A stretch of 64,000 bases of DNA from an uncultured bacterium (GCA_964429585.1 CAYSCN010000008.1:7530-71529), one strand, 5' to 3'. Positions 306-21,825 are shown, counted from the stretch's first letter. The notes: a model not told the origin generated them from the letters alone. Translations and numbers: made by a program.

Positions 306-1838
306 CTAACGCGAGTAACCCTTTCTCATCGCGCTTTTCATTTTTCGTGTAATCACGGGTAGTTCCCCTAACACGGTGAGGCCCAGATCTTTCTCGATCT
401 CTTCCCTGCGCCTTATTGAATCATCAAAGTATTCGGCAATAAACGCCAGGCCAACACCGAAAAATACGCTCACTATGAGACCAACCCCCGAAAATATCAC
501 GAGTTTCTTTATTTCCGGGAAGTCGGGGGGATACGCTGCATCGATCACTTTGATATATCCATCACCTCTCGTATTGTTGACTTTCAGGATACTGGCCCTG
601 CCAAGCTGCTCGCGGAGACTGCGGACTTCCCTCTCCCTGCTCTCTATCTCCTGAGTGAGCCTATTCAACTCGGAGAGGCTCTCCATTATTCTGTTTAGTT
701 TCCCTTTCGCCTCGTCGATCTTTTCGGATATATCCCTCTTCTCCGTCAGCAATTTCCGTTTCATCGATTCAAGAAATTCTTTCTGGCTCTCTATGCTCTT
801 TTCACGTCGATTGTCGCTCACCAGGGACTTCGGCGAATTAGCCCTTGCATCTTCGAGCCTCTTCTCGAGTTTTTCCACCTGCACTCGCAAGGCAACCACA
901 TACGGATGTTTGTCAGTGTGAGTCCTCCTGGCATTATTCAGCTCCGCTCGAAGCTCATTGAGGTCCTTCTCCAGTTTCTTCACGAGACTCGATTCCTGGG
1001 TCTTGTTCTCATCGCTGGCAGAAGACATAGGGGTGAACTCATAATTCCCGGTTGCCAGCTGATAATCAATTTTCTTCAACTTCCCGTCTATCTCATCATA
1101 TTTTGCCTCATATTCCTGTATTTTCTTCTTCTGTTCGCTCACTGCCTCCTCTATAGAAGTCGGAGAGACGACGTTCTCTCTTTTGTAAAATTCTCCAAGC
1201 GCTTTTTGAGCCTCTTTCAATTGTTTAAGAGAAGCTTTCAGCTTGGCTTCGACAAAATTGTAGGCGTTCTGGGTTTTTACAGAGAGATTGGTGTTCACCT
1301 CGTTTATGTACTTCTTGATGAATGTATTCACAATATTCGCTGCCTTTACCGAAGATGACGCACGCGCACTTATCTGTATGATATTGGTGCCTCTCAAAAT
1401 TTTGACGCTCGTTGCCTTGAGCAAATCGTCAATCGCGCTCTCCACCGGATTTATATCCGTTTTGAAAAGAGCCTTCTTTATCTTCTCGACCAGGGAGAGT
1501 TCCTTTGAGGATTCATCGAGCTTGAGTTCTTTTACGACCTGTTCGCATATTTTCCTGCTTCGCAGGATCTCCCTCTGGTTTTTCAGGAATACGCTCCTGT
1601 TTCTGAGGTCTGTTAGATAGGGCATCACATTTTTGGGAATTGCCGGAAGATTTATCACTATTTTCGCCTGCGCCTTGTATTTCAAGGGAAACAAGTATAA
1701 TCCGACGGCACAGGTCAACAGAACACTCAGCATCCCTGCGAGAAAAACCAGCTTTCTCGTCTTTACGATACTTATAAAAGTAGAAAGTATATCCTTGTCG
1801 TGTTCTTCGTAACTCATCTTATATCCTCCAGATTTCAT
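306..1838 (-). CDS. Polysaccharide co-polymerase (Wzz/EpsF-type chain-length determinant), two TM segments flanking a long coiled-coil periplasmic region
   Basis: N-terminal TM (LVFLAGMLSVLLTCAVGLYLF), ~350 aa coiled-coil-rich middle region, C-terminal TM (LVIFSGVGLIVSVFFGVGLAFIAEYF). Sits directly downstream of a BY-kinase gene. Possible true start at MSYEE. Confidence 0.75.
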   Translation of the reverse strand: MKSGGYKMSYEEHDKDILSTFISIVKTRKLVFLAGMLSVLLTCAVGLYLFPLKYKAQAKIVINLPAIPKNVMPYLTDLRNRSVFLKNQREILRSRKICEQVVKELKLDESSKELSLVEKIKKALFKTDINPVESAIDDLLKATSVKILRGTNIIQISARASSSVKAANIVNTFIKKYINEVNTNLSVKTQNAYNFVEAKLKASLKQLKEAQKALGEFYKRENVVSPTSIEEAVSEQKKKIQEYEAKYDEIDGKLKKIDYQLATGNYEFTPMSSASDENKTQESSLVKKLEKDLNELRAELNNARRTHTDKHPYVVALRVQVEKLEKRLEDARANSPKSLVSDNRREKSIESQKEFLESMKRKLLTEKRDISEKIDEAKGKLNRIMESLSELNRLTQEIESREREVRSLREQLGRASILKVNNTRGDGYIKVIDAAYPPDFPEIKKLVIFSGVGLIVSVFFGVGLAFIAEYFDDSIRRREEIEKDLGLTVLGELPVITRKMKSAMRKGYSR

Positions 1839-1870
1839 TGTTTACGCTAGAGCGCTCTTGTGTCGACTTT

Positions 1871-2626
1871 TTAGTATTTCGAGTAATACCTGTGATAGTC
1901 GCGATACACGTCTGGATTGGATTCGGAATAGTTCAGGACCACTCCGGCTATTTTCTCCTTGCCGATGAGTTTAACCGAGTTCTCCACGACGCTTTTTTTG
2001 GTGTGCCCGGCCTTTACAACGAGGATGATCCCATCGGCAACATCAGATATCACCAGCGGATCGGCAATTATACACGCTGGACCAGCATCTATGATGAAAA
2101 AGTACTCCTGATTGATCGAATTGATTGCGTCCCTCAGAGCAGTCATCTTTCGGGTGGTGATGTACACGCTGTCTCTATCAGATACAGGACCAGAAGGAAT
2201 GATCGATAGATTGGGTATGTTCGTTTTCAACATCACATCCGTGAGGGGAAGACCCTCTTCAAAAAAAGAGGACAACCCCTTCGCCTGCCTTCCAAGGCCA
2301 AACACTTCGTGTATCGAGGGTTTCCTCAGATCGAAGTCTACCAAAACCGTCTCCTTTTCAATTTCTGGTGCAATGGAGACCGCGAGGTTGGACGCCACGA
2401 AGGTCTTTCCCTCTTGTGGCATAGTGCTCGTCACCAGGATGGATCTCATTCCCTTTCTCTTTATCTGGCGAAGCAGGCCGAACCTCATGATTCTGAACTG
2501 CTCGGCCACAAATGAGTGAGGCGCCGAATAAGTGAACAAATTCCTCGTTGCCCCCTCAACGTTCACGACTTCCCGTCCATCACTGGTTTTCTTTTCAAGT
2601 TTCTGATCCTCTTTCAGAATTTTCAT
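1871..2626 (-). CDS. Tyrosine-protein kinase (BY-kinase, CpsD/EpsG-like), encoded separately from the PCP
   Basis: Walker A motif VTSTMPQEGKT and DxD-type Walker A'/B motifs. Tyrosine-rich C-terminal tail YRDYHRYYSKY typical of BY-kinases. Confidence 0.8.
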   Translation of the reverse strand: MKILKEDQKLEKKTSDGREVVNVEGATRNLFTYSAPHSFVAEQFRIMRFGLLRQIKRKGMRSILVTSTMPQEGKTFVASNLAVSIAPEIEKETVLVDFDLRKPSIHEVFGLGRQAKGLSSFFEEGLPLTDVMLKTNIPNLSIIPSGPVSDRDSVYITTRKMTALRDAINSINQEYFFIIDAGPACIIADPLVISDVADGIILVVKAGHTKKSVVENSVKLIGKEKIAGVVLNYSESNPDVYRDYHRYYSKY

Positions 2627-2796: not shown

Positions 2797-4368
2797 CTAC
2801 TCTATTCTCAGATTTTTGGGCGGGCTAGGGGTCTTCACTCCGCAAGGATATTCGTATGCGCCTACATCCAGATAGGTTATTGTACCCGCTCCCCTGTTTA
2901 CTTTGGCCGGTTCATCGCACCTTGGCTTTCCCTCGAGGTCTTTCTCCAGGTAGGAAGCTGCAAACATTCCGGCATCAATACAGGGGCTCGTCGCCAAAAG
3001 TCGGAAATTTCCACTTACAGGGTCCACAAATTGGGGATCACCAGTGATTGAATGAGTCCCCGGTCCCGACACGGCACCAGACCGATTAAAGTAGCAGTTG
3101 TAATCCACAGTCGTCCCGATTGAAGATGAGGTATCTATTACAACTGGTGATGCATTCCCGCTCACCACGATTATGTTGTTCAACAGCTCCGCGTTCGACG
3201 AATCATTGACCAAATGAGGACCGTCATAATCCGAATTCATATATAAAGTGTTGTTGTAAAACTTCACACCAGTAACGCCGCTGAAATAAAAGGGTGCTCT
3301 GTAACTGCCGTGAGACCCAATATTGTAAAAAAGATTACTATAATACATATGATCACTTGAAGGTCCTGAACCGTATCCGGGCTTCGCATTGCTTTCGAAT
3401 ATCCCAAATCCGGCGTTGTATATCACGTTTCCATACCACCTGTTCCTGGCATGACCTTCACCGTGGAGAATCCAGTAGTAACTGTAAATTGCTTCATCAG
3501 AAATATCGTGAATGGTGTTGCCATACACCTGAGAATCCTCATTCGAACTCAGCGCTATACCAGTGCCGCAATTGTATACATTGTTATACCTGATGATATT
3601 CTTATCACCACTCCCTATATCTATGCCCAAACCGTTTCCGTATGAAGTATTCCTTTCTACCAGAAGAAAATCTGCCTGCTCGCTGGCTATCCCGGCAAAG
3701 CTGGGGGAATTGTAAGTCGTGCATCCTCTTATCGTAACGTGGTTTGGTCTCCCACCATCCCACTGGTAAACATCAATTCCCGAATACGTGCTCGTATCGT
3801 GGACCACGCAGTTTTCGACGAGTATGTTGTTGACGTTACCTCTCAACTGTATCCCTTCTCCCCCCGTATCGTGAACCTCGAGCCCTATCAACTCAACAAA
3901 AGTAGCGGGATTACTCGTATTGCCCTCTTCATGTTCTATTAGAATCCCCCAGCCGGAGCTGTTGTTCCTTATTTCCAGGCCCTTTATCCTGACGTAATCC
4001 TGCCCACGGATGCTCAATATTGCGCCCCAGCCAGTTTTGCCACCTCCATCTATGATCACCTTCTGTCCCTGATAGGCCTGGACTGCAATATAACTTCCAG
4101 TTGTGCCGGAACGGTTTATGGAAACGATCTCGCTGTATGTCCCCCCCATCACGTTCAGCGTGTCTCCCGGATTCAACCTGTCGACTCCGTACTGTATGGT
4201 CCGCCAGGGAGCACTGATGGACCCGTCATTACTGTCGCTACCAGAGACTGAGACGTAGTACTCGGCAGCATCACCACTGGCGACCATCAAAAACACCAGG
4301 CACAAAATGATCGCGGAAAACATGAAGACTTTTCTAAAAATCACTGTTTCCCCAATCAGGACATCCAT
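2797..4368 (-). CDS. Secreted right-handed parallel beta-helix (pectate-lyase fold) protein, probable polysaccharide lyase/epimerase/hydrolase
   Basis: Signal peptide (MFSAIILCLVFLMVASGDAA; true start likely ~4323). N-terminal YYVSVSGSDSNDGS...PWRTIQ motif typical of beta-helix enzymes. Repetitive N/G-rich beta-helix coils. C-terminal tail KTPSPPKNLRIE. Confidence 0.7.
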   Translation of the reverse strand: MDVLIGETVIFRKVFMFSAIILCLVFLMVASGDAAEYYVSVSGSDSNDGSISAPWRTIQYGVDRLNPGDTLNVMGGTYSEIVSINRSGTTGSYIAVQAYQGQKVIIDGGGKTGWGAILSIRGQDYVRIKGLEIRNNSSGWGILIEHEEGNTSNPATFVELIGLEVHDTGGEGIQLRGNVNNILVENCVVHDTSTYSGIDVYQWDGGRPNHVTIRGCTTYNSPSFAGIASEQADFLLVERNTSYGNGLGIDIGSGDKNIIRYNNVYNCGTGIALSSNEDSQVYGNTIHDISDEAIYSYYWILHGEGHARNRWYGNVIYNAGFGIFESNAKPGYGSGPSSDHMYYSNLFYNIGSHGSYRAPFYFSGVTGVKFYNNTLYMNSDYDGPHLVNDSSNAELLNNIIVVSGNASPVVIDTSSSIGTTVDYNCYFNRSGAVSGPGTHSITGDPQFVDPVSGNFRLLATSPCIDAGMFAASYLEKDLEGKPRCDEPAKVNRGAGTITYLDVGAYEYPCGVKTPSPPKNLRIE

Positions 4369-5627
4369 TACTGCACGATTTTCAGGTTTTGAGGGGGACT
4401 TGGGGTCTTCCCCGTAGACCCTCCCGTAACAAGCGGGTGTGGATACTGAAACGGAGTCCAGGTGAATCCATCATCCTTTACTGTCGGAGCACGGAGGAAA
4501 TATTCCACTCCTTCCCTTATGCACCCACTACAGGTATCATAGTAAGTTCCGAAGCAGTTGCTGCCGCACCCTGTTTCACCCCAAACCCAGAAGTCCTGGG
4601 GTCCCTCACACACACCGTTAGTACATGGGTAATCGAGAACGTGAGAACAGTCGCCACAGCCTCCGCTCCCTGCGCCCCCATCGATCATGAGACCGAAGTA
4701 GATCCACCCATTTTTGAACTCGTACACGTTTCCGGTGGAAATCCCTGAACCCGATCGGATGAGAGCTCCACATACATTTGTGCTCTCGTATACATTGTTA
4801 TAATGCTCGAAGAGCCTGCCACCATGCGGAGTTCCAACAGGGTCGGCATACTTACAATAGTCATAACTCGGCCCATGTACATCGACACAAAGAGATGCAT
4901 TTCTAATCGTATTCTTGCGAAAAACAATCTTGGAATTGCAAAAGCCAGATATGGAATGGTAACAACCATCGAAAACATTGTCTTCGAAAAACAGCGCGTT
5001 CCTTGTTCCCATTGGGGGACGAGTTTTGTCATAATTACCGAAACCGTGTACGTAAAAGCCATACTCCCCGCTCCGGCACTTGAAAACACTGTGATGAACG
5101 ACCCCGTACCAACCCTCCAGAAGAACGATAGGTCCTCTCCCTGAGATAGTCAGGTGATGCCAGTTCAATTCTTTTCCGGGGCCGCTCGCTGGTCTCAGGG
5201 GCTCACTTGTGATATTTCTCGTCCTTGAAGCACCGTCTATCGACATGTAGGCGAGCTCGACGAGGTTCGATCCTGATGTCGGTACCTTAAGGTAAAAATC
5301 GGTTATCACGGTCTGCCCCTGTCCAGCACCGATGATTCTGACGTCCACGTCGGGACCCGTGTTGAGTACAACACCGTTTGTCCACGTGCAATTGCCGGCA
5401 GGGATATAAACAGTGCCTCCCCCTCCGGAAATTACCTTATCCACGGCGCTTTGGACGTCAGCCTCGGAACAGCTGTTTGCTGTAACGTCAAGAGCCAGTG
5501 CGCTCACTGTCATCGCTGTCAAAAGCAGAAAAGCAAATAAGATTATGTTTATTTTTCGAACGATCATTTCAATTTCCTTTCTCCGCAATTTACATGCCAC
5601 CGGGTTAGTCTCCCCTTTATCTGCCAA
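4368..5627 (-). CDS. Secreted Cys-rich right-handed beta-helix protein (pectin-lyase-fold), paralogous in architecture to the downstream gene
   Basis: Signal peptide MIVRKINIILFAFLLLTAMTVSALA (true start ATG ~5567, with AGGAAA RBS). Beta-helix-like repeats. Many Cys near the C-terminus. C-terminal tail KTPSPPQNLKIVQ. Confidence 0.65.
   Translation of the reverse strand: MADKGETNPVACKLRRKEIEMIVRKINIILFAFLLLTAMTVSALALDVTANSCSEADVQSAVDKVISGGGGTVYIPAGNCTWTNGVVLNTGPDVDVRIIGAGQGQTVITDFYLKVPTSGSNLVELAYMSIDGASRTRNITSEPLRPASGPGKELNWHHLTISGRGPIVLLEGWYGVVHHSVFKCRSGEYGFYVHGFGNYDKTRPPMGTRNALFFEDNVFDGCYHSISGFCNSKIVFRKNTIRNASLCVDVHGPSYDYCKYADPVGTPHGGRLFEHYNNVYESTNVCGALIRSGSGISTGNVYEFKNGWIYFGLMIDGGAGSGGCGDCSHVLDYPCTNGVCEGPQDFWVWGETGCGSNCFGTYYDTCSGCIREGVEYFLRAPTVKDDGFTWTPFQYPHPLVTGGSTGKTPSPPQNLKIVQ
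5585..5599 (-). promoter_or_regulatory. sigma54-type -24/-12 element TGGCATGTAAATTGC (GG-N10-GC), upstream of the beta-helix gene; identical 15-mer recurs at 25740-25754
   Basis: Minus-strand sequence reads CCCGGTGGCATGTAAATTGCGGAG. A perfect 22-bp palindrome (5671-5692) lies ~90 bp upstream like an enhancer/UAS. Caveat: only ~17 nt separate the GC element from the ATG. Confidence 0.4.
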
Positions 5628-5729: not shown

Positions 5730-7103
5730 TCACTTTACATCAAGTGGTATCATTACACTCCTCCTGCCAGTGTAATCGGGCGGGTTTTCAACGAAGGTTT
5801 TCAACTCCTCTTCTCCTACGAAGATTCTCACCCTCTTCCCCTCCGGAACATAGAACGTCATCCCGGCCAGCACTCCGACTCTGGGCGGCCTGAATCCTGA
5901 AACTGGATCTTCGATCCCCCGTATGTGTATCGTAACCTCTTCATCGGCCAATTGAAAGTCCCATTTCAGATATCTTCGGGCCACGTAATAATTCAAAAGA
6001 CTCGAAGTTTTTGCAACGTAGATATCTCCTCTCCTGTATTCCCTCGCCAACCTGCGAAGTGCCTTGATCGTTTCAGGACACATGTAACCTTCGCAATCGT
6101 CGTTCTTACCCAGGTGTGTATATACAATCGAGAAGCCCCCAACTTTTTTCAGACGTTCGAGAGTCCTCTCCGATAACACATAGGCAAGCCTCCTGTTGGT
6201 AGCTCCCGTTCCAACCCCACGCCAGTAGTTGTCGAACCTCATGAATTCAAAAATCTTCTGCCCATCGTCGAGCTCTCGGACCTGAACCAGATCGTTTGTT
6301 CCATGAAGCGCGTACTTCCTGCTACCCAGAATACCGAGCACGTTCTTGGCCACCTCTTTGGCTATATTCAACAATGAGTAAAAAGGGTGAACAGGGTCGT
6401 AAATGGAAGCAAAGGTTTCGAACCCAATGGGTGTTGCCTGGCCGATTACCATAGTTACCCTACCCAACCAGGCGAACCTGATCCCATACTTTATGGTCAT
6501 GTCTGCATGATAAGTGGAGGAACCCGGATGATCTCCTGTTCCAAACGTCACATCGTCCCCCATATTGCTCGGCGACCTGTCGTGATCCACCCACACCTCT
6601 AACTTCAGCCCCTTCCTCCTGAGCTCGCTGATCATTCTGAACGCATCCATTCGAGACAGGCCAGGTTTCTTCCCGTACGAGTGTATGATATCGATCGTGC
6701 CCTCCCTGATGAATTCGTCGATTACTCTCACGATCTTCCCGTCTCCACCAAAATACGAAATGGCCCCCGAAGCAGGCTCGAAAGGAAGGAAACTGTCTCC
6801 AATCTCGAGATTCACCCCCCTTCCCACGCTCGTCATCTCCGAACTGTTGAGAAATTTATGTATCTGGATAAATTCATCGAGCGTCTCCGTGTTGTCCGCA
6901 TCGTTCGAAATGGCGAGAGCCGCTCTGTAGGGAAACGGAAATTTCCTGAGCGAAACAGATACGGTGGTATCGTATGTATTATGATAGAGCGCATTTATTT
7001 TTCTTATTGGGGCAAAATAAAAGAAGTAAACGGTCAATAACACCGCTGTCAGCAAACCGGCCAACAACACCGAAATTCTTTTTCCATTCCTGTTTAAACC
7101 CAT
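5730..7103 (-). CDS. Membrane-anchored hypothetical protein of the polysaccharide locus (possibly esterase/deacetylase-like; family not recognised)
   Basis: Single N-terminal TM (ISVLLAGLLTAVLLTVYFFYF), then a large soluble domain. In operon context with GTs. No confident motif match. Confidence 0.45.
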   Translation of the reverse strand: MGLNRNGKRISVLLAGLLTAVLLTVYFFYFAPIRKINALYHNTYDTTVSVSLRKFPFPYRAALAISNDADNTETLDEFIQIHKFLNSSEMTSVGRGVNLEIGDSFLPFEPASGAISYFGGDGKIVRVIDEFIREGTIDIIHSYGKKPGLSRMDAFRMISELRRKGLKLEVWVDHDRSPSNMGDDVTFGTGDHPGSSTYHADMTIKYGIRFAWLGRVTMVIGQATPIGFETFASIYDPVHPFYSLLNIAKEVAKNVLGILGSRKYALHGTNDLVQVRELDDGQKIFEFMRFDNYWRGVGTGATNRRLAYVLSERTLERLKKVGGFSIVYTHLGKNDDCEGYMCPETIKALRRLAREYRRGDIYVAKTSSLLNYYVARRYLKWDFQLADEEVTIHIRGIEDPVSGFRPPRVGVLAGMTFYVPEGKRVRIFVGEEELKTFVENPPDYTGRRSVMIPLDVK

Positions 7104-13627: not shown

Positions 13628-14935
13628 TCACCAGCATATGCCCTCGTATCCAGCGAGGGAGTTCACATCCTCTAGTTTCACGTTTATCAAATCTATCACC
13701 TGGAGGTCCCTTCCGTTGTGCTTGATGTATTCCACCACCTCGTCATTTCTCTTTCCTATCACGATAATATCAACGTTATCGAATGCTTCCGACACACTAT
13801 TTTTCAATAAACTTGAAATATGTGGTATGACTTCTACGATATACCGTCTATTTGCACCCCTTATTCTCGCGAGAGAAACTTCAGGATCGTAAATCTTGAC
13901 GTCGTAGCCTTTGCCAATGAGCCTCTCAGTGAGCTCGACGAGGGGGCTCTCTCTCAAATCATCCGTCCCAGACTTAAAACTCAAACCGCATATCCCAACC
14001 TTCTTCCCCCCATTTTTTCTGATCAGGTCAAAAGCCACGTCTATCTGTCTCCTGTTCGCCGGGAGAATCGATTGCAAAAGCGGAATCTCCAGGTCTATTT
14101 CCTTGGCCAGATAAAGGACCGCTCTCAGGTCCTTGGGCAGGCAGGATCCCCCAAAAGCAAATCCCGGCCTGAGATAATATCCCGATATATTCAACTTTCT
14201 GTCCTTGCAAAATATATCCATTACCTCATGGCTATTTATCCCGAGCTTCTTACAAATGTTTCCTATTTCATTCGCGAATGATATTTTCAAAGCGTGAAAG
14301 AGATTGCAGGCGTACTTGATTAGTTCCGCAACCTTTATCTCAGTTCTCACGAGCTCAGCCTTTATCTCGCCATAAAGCTTTTCCACCACGTCACCACTTT
14401 TCTCGTCCAGCTCCCCTATAACGGTGAACGGCGGATTGTAAAAATCGTGGATGGATGAACCCTCTCTCATAAATTCGGGATTCATGCAGACGCCGAAATC
14501 GACTCCAGCTTTCTTGCCCGAAGTTTTCTCCAGTATCGGCACTATTACGTTCTCTGTTGTTCCCGGCAAAACGGTACTCCTGACGATAACCACGTGATAT
14601 GACGAGTTCCGGGACAGGGCCTCACCGATATCACTCGCGACTTTTTGAATATGCCTGAGATCAAGACTTCCATTTTCCCTGCTGGGAGTTCCCACGCAGA
14701 CGAAGGACACGTCAGCGCCCGGGATTTCATCTGTAGTTGCTCTCAGATTTCCAGACGCCACCACATCACCTATCAGCTCCTCGAGACCCTCTTCCACGAT
14801 TGGACTTCTACCCGAATTTATTATCGAAACTTTCTCTTCATCTATGTCGATACCCGTCACATGGTGGCCTTTTTTGGCCAGGCACGCAGCGGACACACAT
14901 CCCACGTAGCCCATGCCGTAAACGTTTATTCTCAT
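13628..14935 (-). CDS. Nucleotide-sugar 6-dehydrogenase, GDP-mannose 6-dehydrogenase (AlgD)-like
   Basis: N-terminal Rossmann fold MRINVYGMGYVGCVSAACLAKKGH. Motifs GRSPIVEEGLEEL and catalytic LRPGFAFGGSCLPKDLRAV. Overall resemblance to AlgD rather than Ugd (PIYEPGL) type. Confidence 0.8.
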   Translation of the reverse strand: MRINVYGMGYVGCVSAACLAKKGHHVTGIDIDEEKVSIINSGRSPIVEEGLEELIGDVVASGNLRATTDEIPGADVSFVCVGTPSRENGSLDLRHIQKVASDIGEALSRNSSYHVVIVRSTVLPGTTENVIVPILEKTSGKKAGVDFGVCMNPEFMREGSSIHDFYNPPFTVIGELDEKSGDVVEKLYGEIKAELVRTEIKVAELIKYACNLFHALKISFANEIGNICKKLGINSHEVMDIFCKDRKLNISGYYLRPGFAFGGSCLPKDLRAVLYLAKEIDLEIPLLQSILPANRRQIDVAFDLIRKNGGKKVGICGLSFKSGTDDLRESPLVELTERLIGKGYDVKIYDPEVSLARIRGANRRYIVEVIPHISSLLKNSVSEAFDNVDIIVIGKRNDEVVEYIKHNGRDLQVIDLINVKLEDVNSLAGYEGICW

Positions 14936-15864
14936 TTAAAAACCTCCTTTTTTACGTGATCTTTCCAAAATCTGGCAACTTCCCTGGGAAGTGGATTCCA
15001 GAACATACCCCCGAACCTCTCACGGGCGTAAACCAAGAATTCCTCGTATATTTCGACCGGATATTCTTCTCTTCCCCGCTCACCATCGAAACTCATGTAA
15101 TCGGGGTGCGTGTTGAGCAGTGCCATCCCACCTTTGTCCGAAATCCATTCCAGCTTCCTCCTCCATATGCGGAAGTCTTTTTCCCCCATCAGGACAAACA
15201 GCGTAAAATCCTGTGGTAAAGTGTATGGCAATTCAACATATCCTTTACCCGGACGACTCCTCTCCACGTAGAAAGGAAATATGGTCGATACCCCATCTGG
15301 TTGCGGCTCGAAAGGGTCGGTGTCGAAAGTCGAAGAATCGTACTCTATACACAATTCGCCAATCCACTCGAGGTTGTGATGCATCGCCGGCGACCGAAAC
15401 CCCACAGCGCCCCAATCACTGATGTAACGATTGATTTTTCCGGCACGTTCCTGGAATATCTTCCATGAGCTGAAAAGCTTTCCATCGTGATTAAGCCCGT
15501 GCACACCTACCTCAAAACCCATCTCTTCCAAACGCTTTCTCAGTGATTCCGGCGTGTTATATTTTTCCGGAACAAAGTTGAACGAAGATTTGAACCCCAA
15601 TTTCTTCTCGAGCTCGGCTAGCCTCAATGTCCTTTCGAGGCCTCTACCAGTATCCACGTCGTGCGTCAACACCAATGCGAATTGCTTTCCATCAGGCCAG
15701 CCTCCCCACCCCTCAGGGGGATCACCCGCTCTCTCATCTATCGGCCATATCTCTTCGCACAGCTCCATCTTTCTCCTGACCAGCGATCTCCTCACGTAAA
15801 TCTGTATGAATCGGGGGATGATCGGCTTGAACCGGTAGTAAATGTATTTCTTTAATTTATTCAA
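14932..15864 (-). CDS. Polysaccharide deacetylase (CE4/NodB-homology)
   Basis: NodB motifs LTHDVD and HGLNHD. Start overlaps the dehydrogenase gene (ATGA coupling). Confidence 0.8.
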   Translation of the reverse strand: MNKLKKYIYYRFKPIIPRFIQIYVRRSLVRRKMELCEEIWPIDERAGDPPEGWGGWPDGKQFALVLTHDVDTGRGLERTLRLAELEKKLGFKSSFNFVPEKYNTPESLRKRLEEMGFEVGVHGLNHDGKLFSSWKIFQERAGKINRYISDWGAVGFRSPAMHHNLEWIGELCIEYDSSTFDTDPFEPQPDGVSTIFPFYVERSRPGKGYVELPYTLPQDFTLFVLMGEKDFRIWRRKLEWISDKGGMALLNTHPDYMSFDGERGREEYPVEIYEEFLVYARERFGGMFWNPLPREVARFWKDHVKKEVFK

Positions 15865-16765: not shown

Positions 16766-17944
16766 TCAAAATCCCCTCCTCCACCACAGATAAGGAATCA
16801 TCACGTATTCCATCAAAAAAGGAAGAGGATCTTTCATCGAAAACACCGCGTATTCCCTTTTACCTTTCAGGGATTCTATATATTCGGAAATACTCATCCT
16901 TCCAGATATTATCTCCTTCGCAACCGTAGGCACATCGGTTATCCACCTGACCCACTTCACCCCTATCTCGGGTCTCAGTCCATTTTGCACAGGTTCTCCT
17001 ACCATCAACCTGAAAAGAAGATACGGCAGATTCAACCCCGATGCCTTGGCAAGGGTGTGCCAACCCCAGGGCCGGCCGTTGATTTCGATGAATTTGAAAC
17101 ACCCGTCTTTTTCATCCCTCATGAACTCCACCTCGGCGAGCCCGAAATAACCTATTTCCTTCAAAAGGGCAGATGCCATTTCCCCAATTTCGGGGAGGTT
17201 GACCGACTCCGCAAATGTGGTGGCCTGCCCGAAATCCATAGGGTGCTGTCGACTTCTCCTCGCCGCCATTCCAGCCACTACCCTCTCACCATCAAACAAG
17301 ACAACGTATGAGTAAAGGTTCTTGGGGCCCCCCTCTATCATTTCCTGAACAACTATCAATTCCGGCTCAACAAATTCGGACATTTTCCTGAATTCCTCGA
17401 TCAACTCTTTCCTGGTATCTACTCTGACGGCCTTCTTCCTGGTCCTGGGGAAGTAATTCTCCTTGAAGCTAGGCTTCAAAACGAGAGGAAAGCGAGGCTC
17501 CTGAGACAGGATATCTTCTATACCTTTCCCCCTGTACATCCTCGGGATGGGTATTGACAGCTTTTCCGCGACCTCGTAGGCTTCTTTTTTCACGTAGAAT
17601 TTCCTTACCACATCCCAGGGCGGAACGGGTATCCGATAGTATTTCCCCAACTCTTCCCTGTTGACCGACAGCTCCTTTACAATCTCGTCGTTATTCGGGT
17701 AGACGACCCAGCCTTCGAGCTTTTCCTCCTTCGCCAGCTCTATCAGGTACTCCGCGAAGCGCCCCCCTGAAAGAAGGTCCCTTTTGAACGCTCTCCTTCT
17801 GACGTAGCGGGAATACCTCGAAATAGACCATTCATACTCTACCAGAAAAACCTGAACCCCTTGCTCCGAGAGGCTCCTTATCACGCCGAGCCCCTGAAAG
17901 TCTCCGCCCAGGATCAGGGCTCCCGGCTTTCCCGTATTCTTCAC
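16766..17944 (-). CDS. ATP-grasp family ligase (paralog 1 of 3)
   Basis: ATP-grasp core: FPLVLKPS...(K), IVVQEMIEGG, FGLAEVEFMRD..FKFIEINGRP. Paralogous to 18050-19294 and 20572-21825. Confidence 0.7.
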   Translation of the reverse strand: MKNTGKPGALILGGDFQGLGVIRSLSEQGVQVFLVEYEWSISRYSRYVRRRAFKRDLLSGGRFAEYLIELAKEEKLEGWVVYPNNDEIVKELSVNREELGKYYRIPVPPWDVVRKFYVKKEAYEVAEKLSIPIPRMYRGKGIEDILSQEPRFPLVLKPSFKENYFPRTRKKAVRVDTRKELIEEFRKMSEFVEPELIVVQEMIEGGPKNLYSYVVLFDGERVVAGMAARRSRQHPMDFGQATTFAESVNLPEIGEMASALLKEIGYFGLAEVEFMRDEKDGCFKFIEINGRPWGWHTLAKASGLNLPYLLFRLMVGEPVQNGLRPEIGVKWVRWITDVPTVAKEIISGRMSISEYIESLKGKREYAVFSMKDPLPFLMEYVMIPYLWWRRGF

Positions 17945-18049
17945 AATTTCCTCCTTCTATCCATGAACATAAATTTCATCATCTAGTAACACTCTGGAAT
18001 CGATATTAGTTCCACAGGAAACACCACAATAGAAACGTGTTTTCTCATT

Positions 18050-19294
18050 TCAGCCTTCATGGCGGGAATGATGAAGGCGAGATGCAAATTTTTTGATTCC
18101 AGATCTAATCAATTTAAAAACTCTCATTATGAATGGAACTATATCCCCGATGCTGAAAACGGAGAAAACCCTGCTTTGAAAGTATGGGGTCAAAAAACTC
18201 TTCGAAACAAAGCCGATTCCCTTGTATTTCAATATGTAATGCAAATCCTTGAACTCATCCACCCAGTATGTATCTCCCTTTATCTGCTTGCTCTCTCTCG
18301 CCATCGACACCATCTTCTTTCTGTTGAAGAATGAAAAGTAATATAACGCGGGAAAATTGATTCCACACCTGGTGGAAAGATATATCGACCGATTGAATCT
18401 GGGATTTATCTCCATAAGTTTATAAGTGCCGGTTCTCTTATCATTCTTGAACTCGGCGCAAACGTACCCCTCATAATTTACGTTTTTCAATAAAGAATCG
18501 ACCGAATCACGCACTTCGCTCACGTCTTTGCATTTTCTGACTACCGCCGGGACTCCAAATTCCCTGGGCATCATCCTCATTTTCCTGGAAGTCATGCATT
18601 TTAAGGGCGCCCCATCTATGAAAAGCACGTTGTAATTTATTCCCTCCGCATCATCTCCCGGAATGTACTCCTGCACCATCACCTCCAGTCCAAGCCTTTC
18701 AGCCCTATCTATCTCAGCCTTAAGCTCATCTGAGGTGAAAACCATCGTCAATTTCCTATCGAGTGCATCAACATACTTGTGACTGAATACCGGCTTGATT
18801 ATTAACGGAAATTTTAGTTCACGCACCTTTTCCACGTTCTCTATGGAATCCAGAGTTATCGTTCTCGGAATCGGTATTCCATTTGATTCTGCCAATTTAT
18901 ACATTTCTCTCTTGTTGAGTAATCTCTCCTTCACACTCCATTCACGAGAGTCAAGGATGAAGAAATCCGACAGTTCTTCCCTAAAATTGGAGACAGCCAG
19001 AACAGTCGCATCATCACATGGAAACAATATACCTTCCCCGTTTTCCCTGGCAATTGCCTTCAACCCGTTTATGAAATCGAGTTCTTCTGTTCTCGGGTCG
19101 CCTGTAAAATAGCTTTTCGTAACATACTTCGAGAAATGTCCCATATCCATTTCATCGTAACACACGGAAACTATTGGTATATCGTGCTCCCCCAGCGACC
19201 TTATGACACCAAGCCCCACTGTATGCGTCGACAACACGTATGCCGGAATTTTACCCGAAATTGAAGTCATCAAGCCAACCTGTCGCTTCCCCAC
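18050..19294 (-). CDS. ATP-grasp family ligase (paralog 2 of 3)
   Basis: FPLIIKPVFSHK, MVQEYIPGDD, YVCAEFKNDKRTGTYKLMEINPRF ATP-grasp motifs. Confidence 0.7.
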   Translation of the reverse strand: MGKRQVGLMTSISGKIPAYVLSTHTVGLGVIRSLGEHDIPIVSVCYDEMDMGHFSKYVTKSYFTGDPRTEELDFINGLKAIARENGEGILFPCDDATVLAVSNFREELSDFFILDSREWSVKERLLNKREMYKLAESNGIPIPRTITLDSIENVEKVRELKFPLIIKPVFSHKYVDALDRKLTMVFTSDELKAEIDRAERLGLEVMVQEYIPGDDAEGINYNVLFIDGAPLKCMTSRKMRMMPREFGVPAVVRKCKDVSEVRDSVDSLLKNVNYEGYVCAEFKNDKRTGTYKLMEINPRFNRSIYLSTRCGINFPALYYFSFFNRKKMVSMARESKQIKGDTYWVDEFKDLHYILKYKGIGFVSKSFLTPYFQSRVFSVFSIGDIVPFIMRVFKLIRSGIKKFASRLHHSRHEG

Positions 19295-19444
19295 GTTTAT
19301 TTGAAATACTCAAAATCCAAATCTATCCATTACCGAAATTCATTTCCAGATCCTCCTCCATACCAGAGCTTTCACTTGAAACAAATGATATGTTTTAATA
19401 TCCGGAGGTTAGTGACATTTCATTCAACCATTTCAGCACTATAA

Positions 19445-20575
19445 TTACCCTAAATGTTTGTAAAGTAAAGCTCCTGCCATTTTGAGCAGAAACATCGGAG
19501 TTTTCCTGAAAACCTTCCTGGCCACCAGACCGGCTCTAGGATAATACTCCTTGAAAGATTCTTCCTTGATGTCGAGCTTGTAGTAGTTTATCGATATCTC
19601 TTCTGTCCCCCAGCCCCTTTTAAACTGCCTCAAACCATCATTGTCGAAGTCTGTAGAACCGAAACAGAAAGTCCTGTATCTGTTTTCTATGGACCACTTT
19701 ATGGCTTCCCACATTACCAGGTTGTTGGGACGCAAATGCAGGTAATTTCTATCCGATGCACCATATCGATAAAGCACATTACCTCCAAAATTGTAAAAAA
19801 TACCACCAGCCACGTTCCTCCCATTTATAGAAGCCAGAACCACAAACCCCAATCCTTTTGAAATTATCTGCTCATACTCGCTTAGAATGAATTTCCAGGG
19901 ATAAGGCGGAAGGTTCTGCACGAGCTTCCTTGTCATACAATAAAGTCGATAAAACTCTCTAAGTGAATCCAGACTCCTGTAAATCCTTGCCTCGACTCCT
20001 TCTTTCTCGGCCTTCTTTATGTTTCGTTTCGTGCTGCTTCTGAAATTTTTTAGGACCTCACCCTCATCTCCGTCGAGCGTGAGCACATGCCTGAAGTAGC
20101 GGGCAGAAGGCTCCCCCCAGCCGCCATGCTCGCCAATCATCTTGAAAAGGACGTATTTCCAATTTCTTCTTCTCCCATGCTCGACTATCTCCCTGTAGAG
20201 CTCTTCAAATTCTGAATCATCGTAAAGGAGCGGTTCGCAATAATCTGCGAATGGAAGCGAGACCCCTCTGAGCCCGGTTACTGGACTGTTGACTTCCATT
20301 ACTGGAAAAACGGATACACCTTCATTCGAACTTAACGTGAAATAGACGGGTTCGTAACCGTAAGTCTTCTTGAGGACTTTTACCCAGTTGGTCGAGTGAA
20401 AAATGGTCGCGTTAGGATGAGCCAATACGAACTCATCCCAACCCGGGTATTCAAGTGGGTTTATTATGTGAATCATCGCATCTTCCTTTTGAATGATATT
20501 ACCTGTTGAAGGTCTCCGGAGAAGGAAAGACGGCGCCCCACGGTAAGGCCTTGTATGACGAGCCTTTTGTCTCAT
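19445..20575 (-). CDS. FemAB-like / GNAT-fold aminoacyl-transferase family protein (polysaccharide-locus associated)
   Basis: Likely true start MIHIINPLEYPGWDEF (~20476). Architecture and motifs (FHSTNWVKVL..., two GNAT-like halves) resemble the FemAB-related proteins found in EPS/exosortase-type loci. Confidence 0.65.
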   Translation of the reverse strand: MRQKARHTRPYRGAPSFLLRRPSTGNIIQKEDAMIHIINPLEYPGWDEFVLAHPNATIFHSTNWVKVLKKTYGYEPVYFTLSSNEGVSVFPVMEVNSPVTGLRGVSLPFADYCEPLLYDDSEFEELYREIVEHGRRRNWKYVLFKMIGEHGGWGEPSARYFRHVLTLDGDEGEVLKNFRSSTKRNIKKAEKEGVEARIYRSLDSLREFYRLYCMTRKLVQNLPPYPWKFILSEYEQIISKGLGFVVLASINGRNVAGGIFYNFGGNVLYRYGASDRNYLHLRPNNLVMWEAIKWSIENRYRTFCFGSTDFDNDGLRQFKRGWGTEEISINYYKLDIKEESFKEYYPRAGLVARKVFRKTPMFLLKMAGALLYKHLG

Positions 20576-21825
20576 TCCGACATCAGGCCGTTTCTGGTCA
20601 TGAGCAAAAGAGCTCCTCTTTTGAGTTTCCTAAAAGCCAGGTTTCTGATTTCCTGAAGCACCCCAACGAAGAAAGGCCCCGGGTCGGAGAGGGAAAAAAT
20701 GGCATAAGCCTTTTTTCCTCTTATGCTTCTCAACCACTGAATAAAATTCAATTCTCCCCGCCTCCAGTAATAATACGACGACCTGAGGTCCTGATAAATG
20801 TGTATCCACTTTACGCCGTTGTATTTCTGCTCCAGGTTTTTCGGGAGAGGTAGCCCCGTCAGGTCACAATACATGGAGTAAAGAAATTCGACTCCACTTT
20901 TTTCCGCCGTTGCGGAGCGACCCGTGGGACGCCCTATATTGGGTTCGATGATGTAATACTTGCCCGTCCTTCTGTCGAATTTCATCTCCAAATAACCGAA
21001 ACCTCTTCCATTTATCAACTCGAACAGACGAATAGTTTCTTGCCTGACCACATCGTTTTCACACTCGACTGCAAGACACGCCTGACCCGTCTTCGGTGGC
21101 CACTGCCTGACTTTTTTGCTGACAAAAGTAACAAGGGGGCGGCCTTCCTTGTCGAAATAACAGTTACACGTGTAATGGTCCGTTTCGTCACCTTCAACGT
21201 ACTGCTGCACTATCATTTGCTCCGCGTAAGGACTGTACTCTCGATACAGGTTCAACAATTCATCCGGGCCTTCTACCTTGAAAGCCTTTTGCTCAGTGAA
21301 CGCGCTCCACTCAGGCGTACGATATGAAGGCTTCAGAAAACATGGATACGAAATATTCCGGGAAATTCTCTCTACATCCTTTATACTCTCGACAAAATGC
21401 GTTTCCGGTATGGGAAGCCCTTTCTCTGCCGCAAACCTGTAAAATCGCACCTTGTCTATCATGGTCACTACCATCTCATGTTCGGGCAGAAGGACGTGAT
21501 AATACTCTTCGAGGCGAGCGCGGTGTCGAGACACTATGAGCACATTCAGGTCATGGCATGGATACAAGACACCTTTCACATCCAGCCCCTTCCCTATCTC
21601 AATGAGAGTGTCTATCAGAGAATCGTCCTCAGTATTCGCGACAACGATTTTCTCGCATACCCGGGTCGTGCAATTGTAATGTCCCCGCACGTTGGAGATT
21701 GCAATCACGGGCACACCACGAGATGCCAGAATGCGAGCCGCCTGGAGGCATTGCATGAACTCGAGGCCGATCAACACAGCCCTGGGTCTGTCCGGCGGAT
21801 GTTTTTTCTTTTTGAGGATATACAT
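20572..21825 (-). CDS. ATP-grasp family ligase (paralog 3 of 3)
   Basis: YPCFLKPSYR, MIVQQYVEGDE, FGYLEMKFDRRTGKYYIIEPNIGRP ATP-grasp motifs. Stop overlaps the FemAB-like gene start. Confidence 0.7.
   Translation of the reverse strand: MYILKKKKHPPDRPRAVLIGLEFMQCLQAARILASRGVPVIAISNVRGHYNCTTRVCEKIVVANTEDDSLIDTLIEIGKGLDVKGVLYPCHDLNVLIVSRHRARLEEYYHVLLPEHEMVVTMIDKVRFYRFAAEKGLPIPETHFVESIKDVERISRNISYPCFLKPSYRTPEWSAFTEQKAFKVEGPDELLNLYREYSPYAEQMIVQQYVEGDETDHYTCNCYFDKEGRPLVTFVSKKVRQWPPKTGQACLAVECENDVVRQETIRLFELINGRGFGYLEMKFDRRTGKYYIIEPNIGRPTGRSATAEKSGVEFLYSMYCDLTGLPLPKNLEQKYNGVKWIHIYQDLRSSYYYWRRGELNFIQWLRSIRGKKAYAIFSLSDPGPFFVGVLQEIRNLAFRKLKRGALLLMTRNGLMSE

What the first reader, a model, noticed from the sequence alone, without database searches (positions are those of the whole stretch)
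2797..5567. Tandem secreted beta-helix proteins share a short conserved C-terminal tail KTPSPP(K/Q)NL(R/K)I
Two adjacent pectate-lyase-fold proteins have otherwise different sequences (one is Cys-rich). Both terminate in ...G(V/T)KTPSPPKNLRIE* and ...GKTPSPPQNLKIVQ*. The tail has no hydrophobic helix or basic cluster, so it is not PEP-CTERM, LPXTG or a T9SS CTD. It resembles the first residues of an FN3 domain or a Pro-rich processing/glycosylation tag. A conserved terminal peptide on two cargo-like enzymes next to the PCP/BY-kinase suggests a dedicated recognition, processing or tethering signal. Beta-helix enzymes in EPS loci are typically periplasmic epimerases or lyases that edit the nascent polymer (e.g. 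AlgG/AlgL-type roles), which fits the AlgD-like dehydrogenase in the locus.
Basis: seen in the sequence. Interest (0 to 1): 0.55.

Follow-up and report, generated by a model that had tools for sequence, protein, structure and literature searches.

The report
C-terminal FN3 strand-A tag on secreted enzymes
Two neighbouring secreted beta-helix enzymes end in the same 12-residue peptide, which is the first strand of a fibronectin type III (FN3) domain with nothing after it. In other bacteria the genes for enzymes with this kind of tail sit directly upstream of a membrane-anchored FN3 that lacks exactly that strand, which suggests a previously undescribed way of docking enzymes.

Summary
Protein A (2797-4368, minus strand) ends KTPSPPKNLRIE* and protein B (4368-5627, minus strand) ends KTPSPPQNLKIVQ*. 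The tail is their only significant similarity. Six of its nine identical residues use different codons, so the peptide itself is under selection.

Both proteins are exported right-handed beta-helix proteins in a Wzx/Wzy exopolysaccharide locus. The tail is widespread. About a third of the best representatives of B's very large, unannotated family end in Pro-rich linker + P-x-N-L-R-[IV] + 1-7 residues. Other members carry T9SS-like domains, membrane anchors or dockerin-like modules at the same position.

The tail matches positions 1-12 (strand A) of the Pfam fn3 model. In some relatives it continues into a complete FN3.

In Patescibacteria (CPR), diverse secreted carbohydrate-active-type proteins end in DTTPPxAPxGLxVx*. 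Their genes lie immediately upstream of a small membrane-anchored FN3 that starts at strand B (16 of 37 upstream neighbours versus 0 of 40 downstream).

Best explanation: the tail is a donor strand that docks the enzyme onto a strand-A-less FN3 acceptor. This is inferred, not shown. No acceptor was found in this window or next to relatives from double-membrane (diderm) bacteria. I found no description of such a tag in the literature searched.

The parts
2797..4368 (-). Protein A, 523 aa: exported right-handed beta-helix protein (DUF1565/Beta_helix/NosD type) carrying the tail
   Evidence: Pfam Beta_helix E=5.8e-17, NosD 4.4e-14. N-terminal hydrophobic signal sequence read from the translation. 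Identical protein P0001 in three sources.
2800..2835 (-). Tail of A: KTPSPPKNLRIE (residues 512-523), followed by TAG at 2797-2799
   Evidence: Prepended to a strand-A-less FN3, it extends the Pfam fn3 match to HMM position 1 and raises the score from 38.0 to 43.6 bits.
2848..3009 (-). Borderline 'choice-of-anchor Q' domain of A (residues 454-507), directly before the tail
   Evidence: NCBIfam NF041518, E=2.2e-5, 24.6 bits against a cutoff of 25.
4368..5627 (-). Protein B, 419 aa (406 aa from the ATG at 5588): exported Cys-rich right-handed beta-helix protein of a large family with no Pfam model and a YPHPL motif near the C-terminus
   Evidence: AF2 model pLDDT 90.6. Foldseek hits GH87, the AlgE epimerase A-module, HK620 tailspike and PL6 lyases. 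6136 representatives at E<=1e-30.
4371..4409 (-). Tail of B: KTPSPPQNLKIVQ (residues 407-419), followed by TAA at 4368-4370, which overlaps A's ATG by one base
   Evidence: pLDDT <50 and no contact with the beta-helix in the AF2 model (residues 393-406 of P0121). The fn3 HMM match extends to position 1 and the score rises to 45.9 bits in the chimera test.
4431..4445 (-). YPHPL motif that ends B's beta-helix domain. The variable Pro-rich linker and the tail follow it.
   Evidence: Y382/P383/P385 invariant and H384 nearly invariant in the family alignment. C-termini of homologues listed.
5493..5567 (-). Signal peptide of B (MIVRKINIILFAFLLLTAMTVSALA)
   Evidence: Read from the translation. Helix 3-23 in the AF2 model.
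5730..7103 (-). Upstream neighbour, 457 aa: N-terminal transmembrane helix, no family match. Part of the locus, not shown to be linked to the tail.
   Evidence: No Pfam, NCBIfam or PDB sequence hit. Not conserved next to the B-A pair in L008/L088.
306..2626 (-). Downstream neighbours: BY-kinase-like P-loop protein (1871-2626) and Wzz/PCP protein (306-1838)
   Evidence: Pfam AAA_31/ParA and Wzz. The same B-A-kinase-PCP order occurs in L008.

Best explanation
The shared tail is a portable C-terminal tag made of a Pro-rich linker plus a single beta-strand that corresponds to strand A of a fibronectin type III (FN3) domain. The proposed mechanism is as follows. After Sec export, the flexible tail inserts as the missing edge strand into an FN3-type acceptor domain that lacks its own strand A. 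This is donor-strand complementation, in effect a 'split FN3'. It would hold the two beta-helix polysaccharide-acting enzymes non-covalently at a defined place on the cell envelope, near the EPS assembly and export machinery.

Shown: the tail is real and is conserved at the peptide level. It is free in the monomer model. It recurs on many unrelated secreted proteins and occupies the position used by anchor modules in relatives. It matches FN3 strand A. In Patescibacteria (CPR), genes with equivalent tails lie directly upstream of membrane-anchored FN3 proteins that start at strand B.

Inferred: physical strand insertion; that the NL(R/K)I-type tail of this Desulfobacterota-like double-membrane (diderm) bacterium works as the CPR GLxV-type tail is proposed to work; and that an acceptor exists elsewhere in this genome.
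For: (1) Peptide-level selection. The tail is the only significant A/B similarity, and 6 of 9 identical residues use different codons.
(2) Tails co-vary by genome. The A and B homologues end KTPSPPxNLxI in the window, (K/R)IPxxPxxxxI in L008/L088, and DT(T/I)PPxAPSGVTV in L003.
(3) Portability. In P0126 the tail stays at the extreme C-terminus even with an extra Ig-like domain inserted. In CPR it sits on Beta_helix, Apiosidase-like, Laminin_G_3, heparinase-II-like, PL14 and fn3 proteins and on many with no Pfam match.
(4) Anchor slot. Relatives of A and B carry T9SS-like CTDs, TM+basic anchors, dockerin-like modules or VYLPLVLR tails at the same position.
(5) Identity with strand A. The acceptor alone matches fn3 HMM positions 13-79 at 38.0 bits. 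Adding the native tail or either window tail extends the match to position 1-2 and gives 42.9-45.9 bits. Two scrambled tails give 38.8-40.1 bits and start at position 8-11. Relatives P0306, P0349, P0377 and P0385 continue from the same motif into a full FN3.
(6) The tail is free. Its pLDDT is below 50 in B's model.
(7) The acceptor. More than 150 small Patescibacteria proteins consist of a TM helix, about 8 residues, then FN3 from strand B onward. The AF2 model has only six strands and an FN3 fold.
(8) Linkage. In 4 of 4 looked-up loci and in 16 of 37 non-redundant metagenome loci, the immediate upstream same-strand gene bears the tail, against 0 of 40 downstream neighbours (Fisher p=9e-7).
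(9) Exact length. All 63 non-redundant CPR tails end exactly one residue after P-x-G-[LV]-x-[VI].
Against: No strand-A-less FN3, and no FN3 of any kind, was found in the 64-kb window. None was found within 10 kb of any tail-bearing homologue from a diderm bacterium: L006-L008, L088-L096, L180-L182 and the P0106 locus. The CPR linkage is therefore only an analogy for this genome.

Tails outside CPR vary in length after the motif (1-7 residues), so they are less constrained than CPR tails. Several of A's closest orthologues lack the tail (P0002-P0004, P0006).

The acceptor-type FN3 also occurs internally without a strand A (L087 1120-aa protein, residue ~515), and AF2 models it confidently without strand A. 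It may therefore be an intrinsically stable six-stranded variant.

The Pfam gain of 5-8 bits rests on only two scrambled controls. No complex prediction or experiment was possible.
Confidence: 0.42

Rival explanations
1. The tail is a recognition signal read in some way other than strand donation. Candidates are a C-terminal peptide bound by an envelope protease, an outer-membrane translocation or surface-exposure factor, or an O-glycosyltransferase acting on the (S/T)-P-rich linker. On this view the tail directs processing, export or modification rather than tethering.
For: The tail is conserved at the peptide level. It is disordered in the model. It sits in the slot where relatives carry secretion or sorting modules such as T9SS-like CTDs. 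The linker is rich in T/S/P. The conserved Arg in NLR[IV] (25 of 44 tails) suggests specific side-chain recognition.
Against: No protease, sortase, glycosyltransferase or transporter gene is consistently adjacent to tail genes across the loci examined. In CPR the consistently adjacent gene is a strand-A-less FN3. The alternating hydrophobic pattern and the fn3 strand-A match are what a strand that inserts into a sheet would show.
Confidence: 0.25
2. The tail is an evolutionary stub with no function of its own. It would be the linker and first strand left behind when a C-terminal FN3 (with or without an anchor) was lost. It would persist because the linker residues are harmless or because they slightly stabilise the end of the beta-helix.
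For: Relatives have a complete FN3 starting at exactly this position. Tails outside CPR vary in length. Close orthologues of A have lost the tail without an obvious replacement. No acceptor was found in diderm loci.
Against: Two non-homologous proteins in one genome keep 9/11 identical tail residues while 6 of those 9 identical residues use different codons. Tails co-vary by genome in three genomes. 43 of 78 short-C-terminus representatives of the B family stop within 1-7 residues of the same motif. 63 of 63 CPR tails stop exactly one residue after it. Random truncation would not give this precision or the positional linkage to strand-A-less FN3 genes.
Confidence: 0.18
3. The tail acts within or between the enzymes themselves. 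It would be a C-terminal strand that caps the beta-helix or that is swapped between subunits to build homo- or hetero-oligomers of A and B.
For: A and B are probably translationally coupled (TAATG overlap) and both carry the tail. Beta-helix proteins such as tailspikes often oligomerise (Foldseek hits).
Against: The tail has pLDDT <50 and is not docked in B's model. The same tail occurs on unrelated folds (TIM-barrel-like, ConA-like, fn3). In P0126 it remains at the extreme C-terminus with an extra Ig-like domain between it and the beta-helix. A conserved cis docking site is therefore unlikely.
Confidence: 0.08
4. The tail is an artefact: a frameshift, an assembly error or a mis-called stop that cuts off a real FN3 domain.
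For: The tail looks like the start of an FN3 domain.
Against: No FN3-like frame follows either stop. Identical sequence occurs in independent assemblies. Dozens of independent homologues stop at the same place.
Confidence: 0.02

Closest known systems
Donor-strand complementation in chaperone-usher pili, Bacteroidia type V pili and archaeal threads/cannulae
   Same: An Ig-like fold that lacks one edge strand is completed by a terminal strand supplied by another polypeptide. The donor strand shows alternating hydrophobic residues. (Established knowledge; reviews and papers listed, e.g. PMC7616799, PMC12518558.)
   Different: In those systems the strand links identical or related pilin subunits into filaments, and the missing strand is usually the C-terminal G strand of a pilin fold. 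Here the donor is a roughly 12-14-residue C-terminal tag on enzymes of many unrelated folds. In CPR the proposed acceptor is a small membrane-anchored FN3 lacking its N-terminal strand A. No chaperone, usher or protease is encoded nearby. Complementation itself is not demonstrated.
Cohesin-dockerin enzyme tethering (cellulosomes)
   Same: The logic is the same: a portable C-terminal module on many different carbohydrate-active enzymes docks them to an anchored scaffold. Some relatives of A and B carry dockerin-like modules in the same slot (PF00404 in P0074 and P0143). The CPR locus L004 also encodes cohesin-like and dockerin-like modules.
   Different: A dockerin is a ~70-residue Ca-binding folded domain that binds a complete cohesin. 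Here the tag is a single strand and the partner is an incomplete domain.
SpyTag/SpyCatcher and other engineered split Ig-like domains
   Same: A short peptide tag equal to one strand of an Ig-like domain reconstitutes the fold with the truncated remainder.
   Different: Those are engineered from CnaB domains and lock with an isopeptide bond. Nothing here shows covalent chemistry. The system proposed here would be natural and FN3-based.
C-terminal sorting signals (PEP-CTERM/exosortase, LPXTG/sortase, MYXO-CTERM, T9SS CTD)
   Same: They have the same position in the protein and the same 'choice of anchor' behaviour among homologues. The window's EPS locus is of the XrtA/PEP-CTERM-associated type (TIGR03019, TIGR03016).
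   Different: The tail has no transmembrane helix, no basic cluster and no folded CTD. No dedicated transpeptidase is linked to it.
Ordinary FN3 domains following bacterial glycoside hydrolases/lyases
   Same: The linker and strand A sequence (DTTPPxAPxGLxV, PPxNLR[IV]) are the same as at the start of cis FN3 domains in relatives.
   Different: In the window proteins the polypeptide ends 1-2 residues after strand A.

Membership tests
Fibronectin type III domain (Pfam PF00041), strand A | Sequence matches the N-terminal (strand A) positions of the fn3 profile | tested here: met
   With either window tail prepended to a strand-A-less FN3, the fn3 match starts at HMM position 1 instead of 13 and gains 5.6-7.9 bits. 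Two scrambled tails gain 0.8-2.1 bits and start at position 8-11. There were only two controls.
Fibronectin type III domain (Pfam PF00041), strand A | Strands B-G follow in the same polypeptide (a complete domain) | tested here: not met
   Stop codons follow 1 residue (A) and 2 residues (B) after the NL(R/K)I motif, and there is no FN3 frame downstream. The tail is therefore a fragment of the fold, not a domain.
Donor-strand complementation systems | A partner protein with an Ig-like/FN3 fold that lacks the corresponding strand | tested here: inconclusive
   Met in Patescibacteria: more than 150 TM-anchored FN3 proteins start at strand B. Not found in the window or near diderm homologues. The rest of this genome could not be searched.
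Donor-strand complementation systems | Genetic linkage of donor and acceptor | tested here: inconclusive
   CPR: the upstream neighbour is tail-bearing in 16 of 37 loci against 0 of 40 downstream, p=9e-7. Window lineage: no linkage seen.
Donor-strand complementation systems | Physical insertion of the donor strand into the acceptor sheet | not testable with these tools
   Only single-chain prediction of window or database proteins was allowed. No multimer modelling or experiment was possible.
PEP-CTERM / LPXTG / MYXO-CTERM type sorting signals | Signature motif followed by a hydrophobic transmembrane segment and a basic cluster at the C-terminus | tested here: not met
   The tails are KTPSPPKNLRIE and KTPSPPQNLKIVQ, with no hydrophobic stretch. 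Some relatives do carry such anchors instead (e.g. P0131, P0438).
T9SS C-terminal domain | An ~80-100-residue beta-sandwich CTD (PF18962 / PF13860-like) | tested here: not met
   No such Pfam hit in A or B, and the tail is 12-13 residues. Relatives P0029-P0048 carry PF13860-type CTDs.
Right-handed parallel beta-helix (pectate-lyase-like) fold | Beta-helix repeats detected by profile or by structure | tested here: met
   A: Beta_helix 5.8e-17, NosD 4.4e-14. B: AF2 pLDDT 90.6 and Foldseek probability 0.98-1.00 to GH87, AlgE4/6, HK620 tailspike and PL6. Catalytic activity was not tested.
Choice-of-anchor Q domain (NCBIfam NF041518) | Score at or above the curated cutoff | tested here: inconclusive
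   A residues 454-507 score 24.6 bits against a cutoff of 25. Homologues do show alternative C-terminal anchors.
Cohesin-dockerin | A duplicated Ca-binding dockerin module of about 70 residues | tested here: not met
   No PF00404 hit in A or B, and the tail is too short.

The most novel reading that the evidence does not exclude
Bacteria of several phyla use a natural 'split FN3' tag-and-catcher system. A 12-14-residue C-terminal FN3 strand-A tag (DTTPPxAPxGLxVx in Patescibacteria, PPxNLR[IV]x1-7 in Desulfobacterota, Acidobacteriota and others) is appended to many unrelated secreted polysaccharide-active enzymes. An anchored FN3 that lacks strand A captures it, giving a minimal, genome-specific docking system for surface or periplasmic enzymes. 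The two EPS-locus beta-helix enzymes in this window would be clients of such a system.
Probability: 0.35. Interest if true: 0.85.

Novelty: new variant of a known kind. Interest (0 to 1): 0.68.

Why it matters
If the tail is a donor strand for an incomplete FN3, it defines a new and very small protein-anchoring module. It would work like a dockerin but be only one strand long, and it would be present on thousands of uncharacterised secreted enzymes.

- It would explain how Patescibacteria could display glycan-degrading enzymes on the cell.
- It would explain how EPS-editing enzymes in Wzx/Wzy loci could be kept at the assembly site.
- It would give annotators a rule: exported proteins ending in PxNLR[IV] or PxGLxVx are clients, and N-terminal FN3 domains starting at strand B are receptors.
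- It would provide a natural, orthogonal peptide-tag and catcher pair for protein engineering.

Even if the mechanism is wrong, three results stand as new, testable observations: the tail's conservation, its placement in the anchor slot, and the CPR gene linkage.

Tried and rejected
(1) A viral-contig scan with the DNA pattern for KTPxPPxNLxI gave 76 hits. All were an unrelated phage protein with an internal KTPFPPINFLI, and none was terminal.

(2) I searched the window and all diderm loci for a strand-A-less FN3 with a regular expression and with an HMM built from the CPR acceptor family. Nothing scored below E=0.46. Pfam on essentially every large ORF of the window found no fn3 or Ig-like domain.

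The 9-sequence alignment worked but returned only 12 loci, none with an FN3 neighbour.

(4) I attempted a covariation analysis between CPR tails and their neighbouring acceptors. Both partners are too conserved, and 24 pairs are too few, to separate coupling from phylogeny.

(5) The 457-aa upstream membrane protein was considered as a possible acceptor. It has no family or PDB match and is not conserved next to the B-A pair elsewhere, so it was dropped.

(6) A PDZ-type C-terminal recognition was considered and set aside. The terminal residues are mostly polar (E, Q, N, S, K, P) rather than hydrophobic. This rests on general knowledge of PDZ motifs, not on a test.

(7) Six literature searches for FN3 strand complementation, split FN3, Patescibacteria FN3 anchors and choice-of-anchor domains found nothing describing this tag.

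(8) The cluster-member look-up gave almost no taxonomy.
Full report
OBSERVATION. The two ORFs are as described. Protein A (window 2797-4368, minus strand, 523 aa) ends ...AYEYPCGVKTPSPPKNLRIE*. Protein B (4368-5627, minus strand, 419 aa, or 406 aa from the next ATG) ends ...YPHPLVTGGSTGKTPSPPQNLKIVQ*. BLASTP of one against the other finds a single significant match, the tail, with 9/11 identities. At the DNA level, 3 of the 11 tail codons are identical, 6 differ only synonymously and 2 are conservative replacements. So the peptide is conserved, not the DNA. No FN3-like frame follows either stop. B's TAA overlaps A's ATG, and 170 bp of spacer follow A's TAG. The same proteins occur in independent assemblies. 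The motif occurs nowhere else in the window.

THE TWO PROTEINS AND THEIR SETTING. A matches Beta_helix, NosD and DUF1565. Just before the tail it has a borderline 'choice-of-anchor Q' domain (24.6 bits against a cutoff of 25). B has no Pfam family. Its AlphaFold2 model (pLDDT 90.6) is a right-handed beta-helix that matches GH87 glucanases, AlgE epimerase modules, the HK620 tailspike and PL6 lyases. A profile of B's family finds 6136 cluster representatives at E<=1e-30, so this is a very large unannotated family.

Both proteins have N-terminal signal sequences. They sit in a Wzx/Wzy exopolysaccharide locus. It encodes GT4 transferases, a Wzx flippase, a Wzy_C protein, a UDP-glucose/GDP-mannose dehydrogenase family enzyme, a PCP, a BY-kinase, a Wza-like exporter and a Bac_transf enzyme. 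It also has XrtA/PEP-CTERM-associated markers (TIGR03019 FemAB-like, TIGR03016 outer-membrane protein). The organism is a diderm, probably Desulfobacterota-like. That is an inference from sigma-54 regulators, multihaem cytochromes and the closest named relative, 'Deltaproteobacteria bacterium WY2.bin79'.

THE TAIL IS WIDESPREAD AND SITS IN THE ANCHOR SLOT. Many distant homologues of both families end in a Pro-rich linker followed by P-x-(N/G)-(L/V)-x-(I/V) and then the stop. Examples are PLPPMNLRIVY*, LSPPKNLRVQ*, NPPRNLRIISP*, NAPKNLHIIKP* and PQPPSNVRLIK*. Acidobacteriota relatives end PPAAPTGLQVTAQ* and APAAPVSLKAVAQ*.

Among the 143 best new representatives of B's family, 33 (strict pattern) to 44 (broad pattern) carry the tail. 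Of the 78 that end within 45 residues of the YPHP motif, 43 carry it. The consensus is P-x-N-L-R-[IV] plus 1-7 residues. The remaining relatives carry other modules at the same place: T9SS-like CTDs, transmembrane-plus-basic anchors, dockerin-like modules, or an FN3-like domain with a VYLPLVLR tail. In P0126 an extra Ig-like domain lies between the beta-helix and the tail, so the tail follows the C-terminus and not the catalytic fold.

Tails are alike within a genome and differ between genomes. The A and B homologues carry KTPSPPxNLxI in the window, (K/R)IPxxPxxxxI in L008/L088, and DT(T/I)PPxAPSGVTV in L003. In B's model the tail has pLDDT below 50 and does not pack on the protein.

THE TAIL IS FN3 STRAND A. 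A strand-A-less FN3 (described below) matches Pfam fn3 at HMM positions 13-79 with 38.0 bits. Prepending its neighbour's native tail, A's tail or B's tail moves the start to HMM position 2, 1 and 1 and raises the score to 42.9, 43.6 and 45.9 bits. Two scrambled tails give 40.1 and 38.8 bits and start at positions 8 and 11. This control set is small. Independently, four relatives of B (P0306, P0349, P0377, P0385) continue from the same motif into a complete FN3, for example ...PQNVRV|VSTTSRTIQIAWDSS...GYFLW.... The tail is therefore homologous to the linker plus strand A of a cis FN3.

A CANDIDATE ACCEPTOR IN PATESCIBACTERIA. Locus L004 (Parcubacteria, 557-kb contig) has six genes within 13 kb that end D(T/I)T.P..P.GL.(V/L)(Q/N)*. 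One is an Apiosidase-like protein that is not a beta-helix. They are followed at once by a 119-aa protein made of a TM helix, about 8 residues, and an FN3 that begins at strand B (GEANLSWNPNTETDLSGYKIYYG...).

This small protein belongs to a family of more than 150 Patescibacteria proteins with the same architecture. None has a strand A. Its AF2 model (pLDDT 87) has a TM helix and six strands, and Foldseek places it among FN3 domains.

In three further look-ups (L085, on the same contig as L003; L086; L087), the gene or genes directly upstream again end in the tail. A metagenome scan with the acceptor family returned 80 loci. Among 54 distinct acceptors, the immediate upstream same-strand neighbour bears the tail in 16 of 37 cases. 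The immediate downstream neighbour does so in 0 of 40 (Fisher p=9e-7). The pattern occurs at the end of 3 of 424 control ORFs from unrelated viral contigs.

The 63 non-redundant CPR tail proteins have the logo D-T-T-P-P-[AS]-A-P-[ST]-G-[LV]-x-[VI]-x-stop. All 63 end exactly one residue after the strand motif. They span Beta_helix, Apiosidase/Collagen_bind_2, Laminin_G_3, DUF4962/HepII_C, PL14, He_PIG and fn3 proteins, and many have no Pfam match. Tail codons differ synonymously among paralogues in one genome. Acceptor-type FN3 domains also occur at the mature N-terminus of larger proteins, fused to dockerin-like repeats in L004 and at the start of a 1120-aa protein in L087.

MECHANISM. The best-supported reading is donor-strand complementation. 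The free C-terminal strand-A tag of an exported enzyme completes an anchored FN3 that lacks strand A, and this tethers the enzyme. For CPR the support is fold complementarity, exact tag length, portability and directional gene linkage. For this window it is an extrapolation. No FN3 of any kind is encoded in the 64 kb or within 10 kb of any diderm homologue examined. The rest of the genome could not be reached.

There are further caveats. An acceptor-type FN3 without strand A also occurs internally in the L087 1120-aa protein, and AF2 is confident without strand A. The domain may therefore be stable on its own. Non-CPR tails vary in length. Some close orthologues of A lack the tail.

I put the mechanism at about 0.4 for the window proteins. 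I am much more confident (about 0.85) in the weaker claim that the tail is a selected, portable, FN3-strand-A-derived terminal module.

The rivals, in order of weight, are:
- a recognition signal for processing, export or glycosylation (0.25);
- a functionless stub left after FN3 loss (0.18);
- a cis cap or oligomerisation strand (0.08);
- an artefact (0.02).

COMPARISON WITH KNOWN SYSTEMS. The principle is that of donor-strand complementation in pili. The logic is that of cohesin-dockerin tethering. The closest engineered analogue is SpyTag/SpyCatcher. The tail fails the defining features of PEP-CTERM/LPXTG-type signals, of T9SS CTDs and of dockerins. It is only a fragment of an FN3 domain. 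Six full-text searches found no description of an FN3 strand-A tag or of strand-A-less FN3 anchors. The library searched is incomplete.

VERDICT. Their idea that the tail resembles the start of an FN3 domain is supported. Their 'tethering signal' idea is the best current explanation, but it is unproven for this genome. I rate this a new variant of a known kind (donor-strand docking applied to enzyme anchoring), with interest 0.68.

Noticed in passing
window 4368-5627 (protein B) and P0121-P0162, P0300-P0442: B belongs to a very large beta-helix family with no Pfam model: 15184 cluster representatives at E<=1e-3 and 6136 at E<=1e-30. Its invariant residues (E202, R224, H238, Y263, N265, the YPHP motif) could mark an active site. 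Members almost always lie in Wzx/Wzy EPS or O-antigen loci next to a Wzy_C protein.
   Followed up: partly
P0012-P0021, P0062, P0111, P0373, P0406, P0411, P0422, P0441 (homologues of A and B; P0016 is named Anaerolineae by its source): A different conserved C-terminal ending, ...MPTD(I/R)(F/V)VYLP(L/I)(V/I)(L/M)(R/K)xx*, follows an FN3-like domain in homologues of both families. It looks like another lineage-specific terminal signal.
   Followed up: no
P0303, P0305, P0309, P0311, P0314, P0363 (B-family representatives): Several long B-family proteins end in a conserved module ...(M/L)(I/V)AF(I/M/L)(D/E)RWK(I/V)S...(M/L)ESIGLWK(S/G)G.GC*, with a terminal Cys. I could not identify this module.
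   Followed up: no
window 5730-7103 (-): A 457-aa protein with an N-terminal TM helix lies directly upstream of B. It has no Pfam, NCBIfam or PDB sequence match.
   Followed up: partly
window 16766-21825 (-): Three ATP-grasp ligase-like genes and a FemAB-family XrtA/PEP-CTERM-associated gene lie inside the EPS locus. This hints at amino-acid or peptide decoration of the polysaccharide. No exosortase gene was recognised in the window: the 310-aa ORF at 14932-15864 has only a weak polysaccharide-deacetylase hit.
   Followed up: partly
window 27829-28317 (-): An RfaH/UpxY-like transcription antiterminator gene lies upstream of the Wza-like exporter at the head of the EPS gene block.
   Followed up: no
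window 4366-4370: B's stop and A's annotated start overlap as TAATG, which suggests translational coupling of the two tail-bearing genes. A's true start could instead be the Met 15 codons downstream.
   Followed up: no
L004 14007-17276 and 17784-19400: The Parcubacteria locus also encodes cohesin-like domains and C-terminal DIFDYN-repeat (dockerin-like) modules. One protein combines a signal peptide, a strand-A-less FN3 and the dockerin-like repeats. This points to a layered surface-display system in CPR.
   Followed up: partly
L087 1621-4983 (1120-aa protein): One protein holds three FN3 arrangements: an N-terminal strand-A-less FN3, a complete FN3 with cis strand A (DTTPPSIPSNLSA, ~residue 416), and an internal acceptor-type FN3 (~residue 515) that directly follows the previous domain with no strand A. 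The acceptor type therefore lacks strand A in every copy examined.
   Followed up: partly
CPR acceptor family P0163-P0282: After the FN3 domain, these small proteins carry a short basic amphipathic C-terminal segment (e.g. ...SIFDKLKTFFKK) and a conserved Cys pair (DCPPGGY ... ESCFS). Neither feature is explained.
   Followed up: no
window 33723-34322 (-): This ORF resembles the DUF2284 part of the ArsM/DUF2284 and MbdU selenoprotein families. The possible use of an in-frame UGA was not examined.
   Followed up: no
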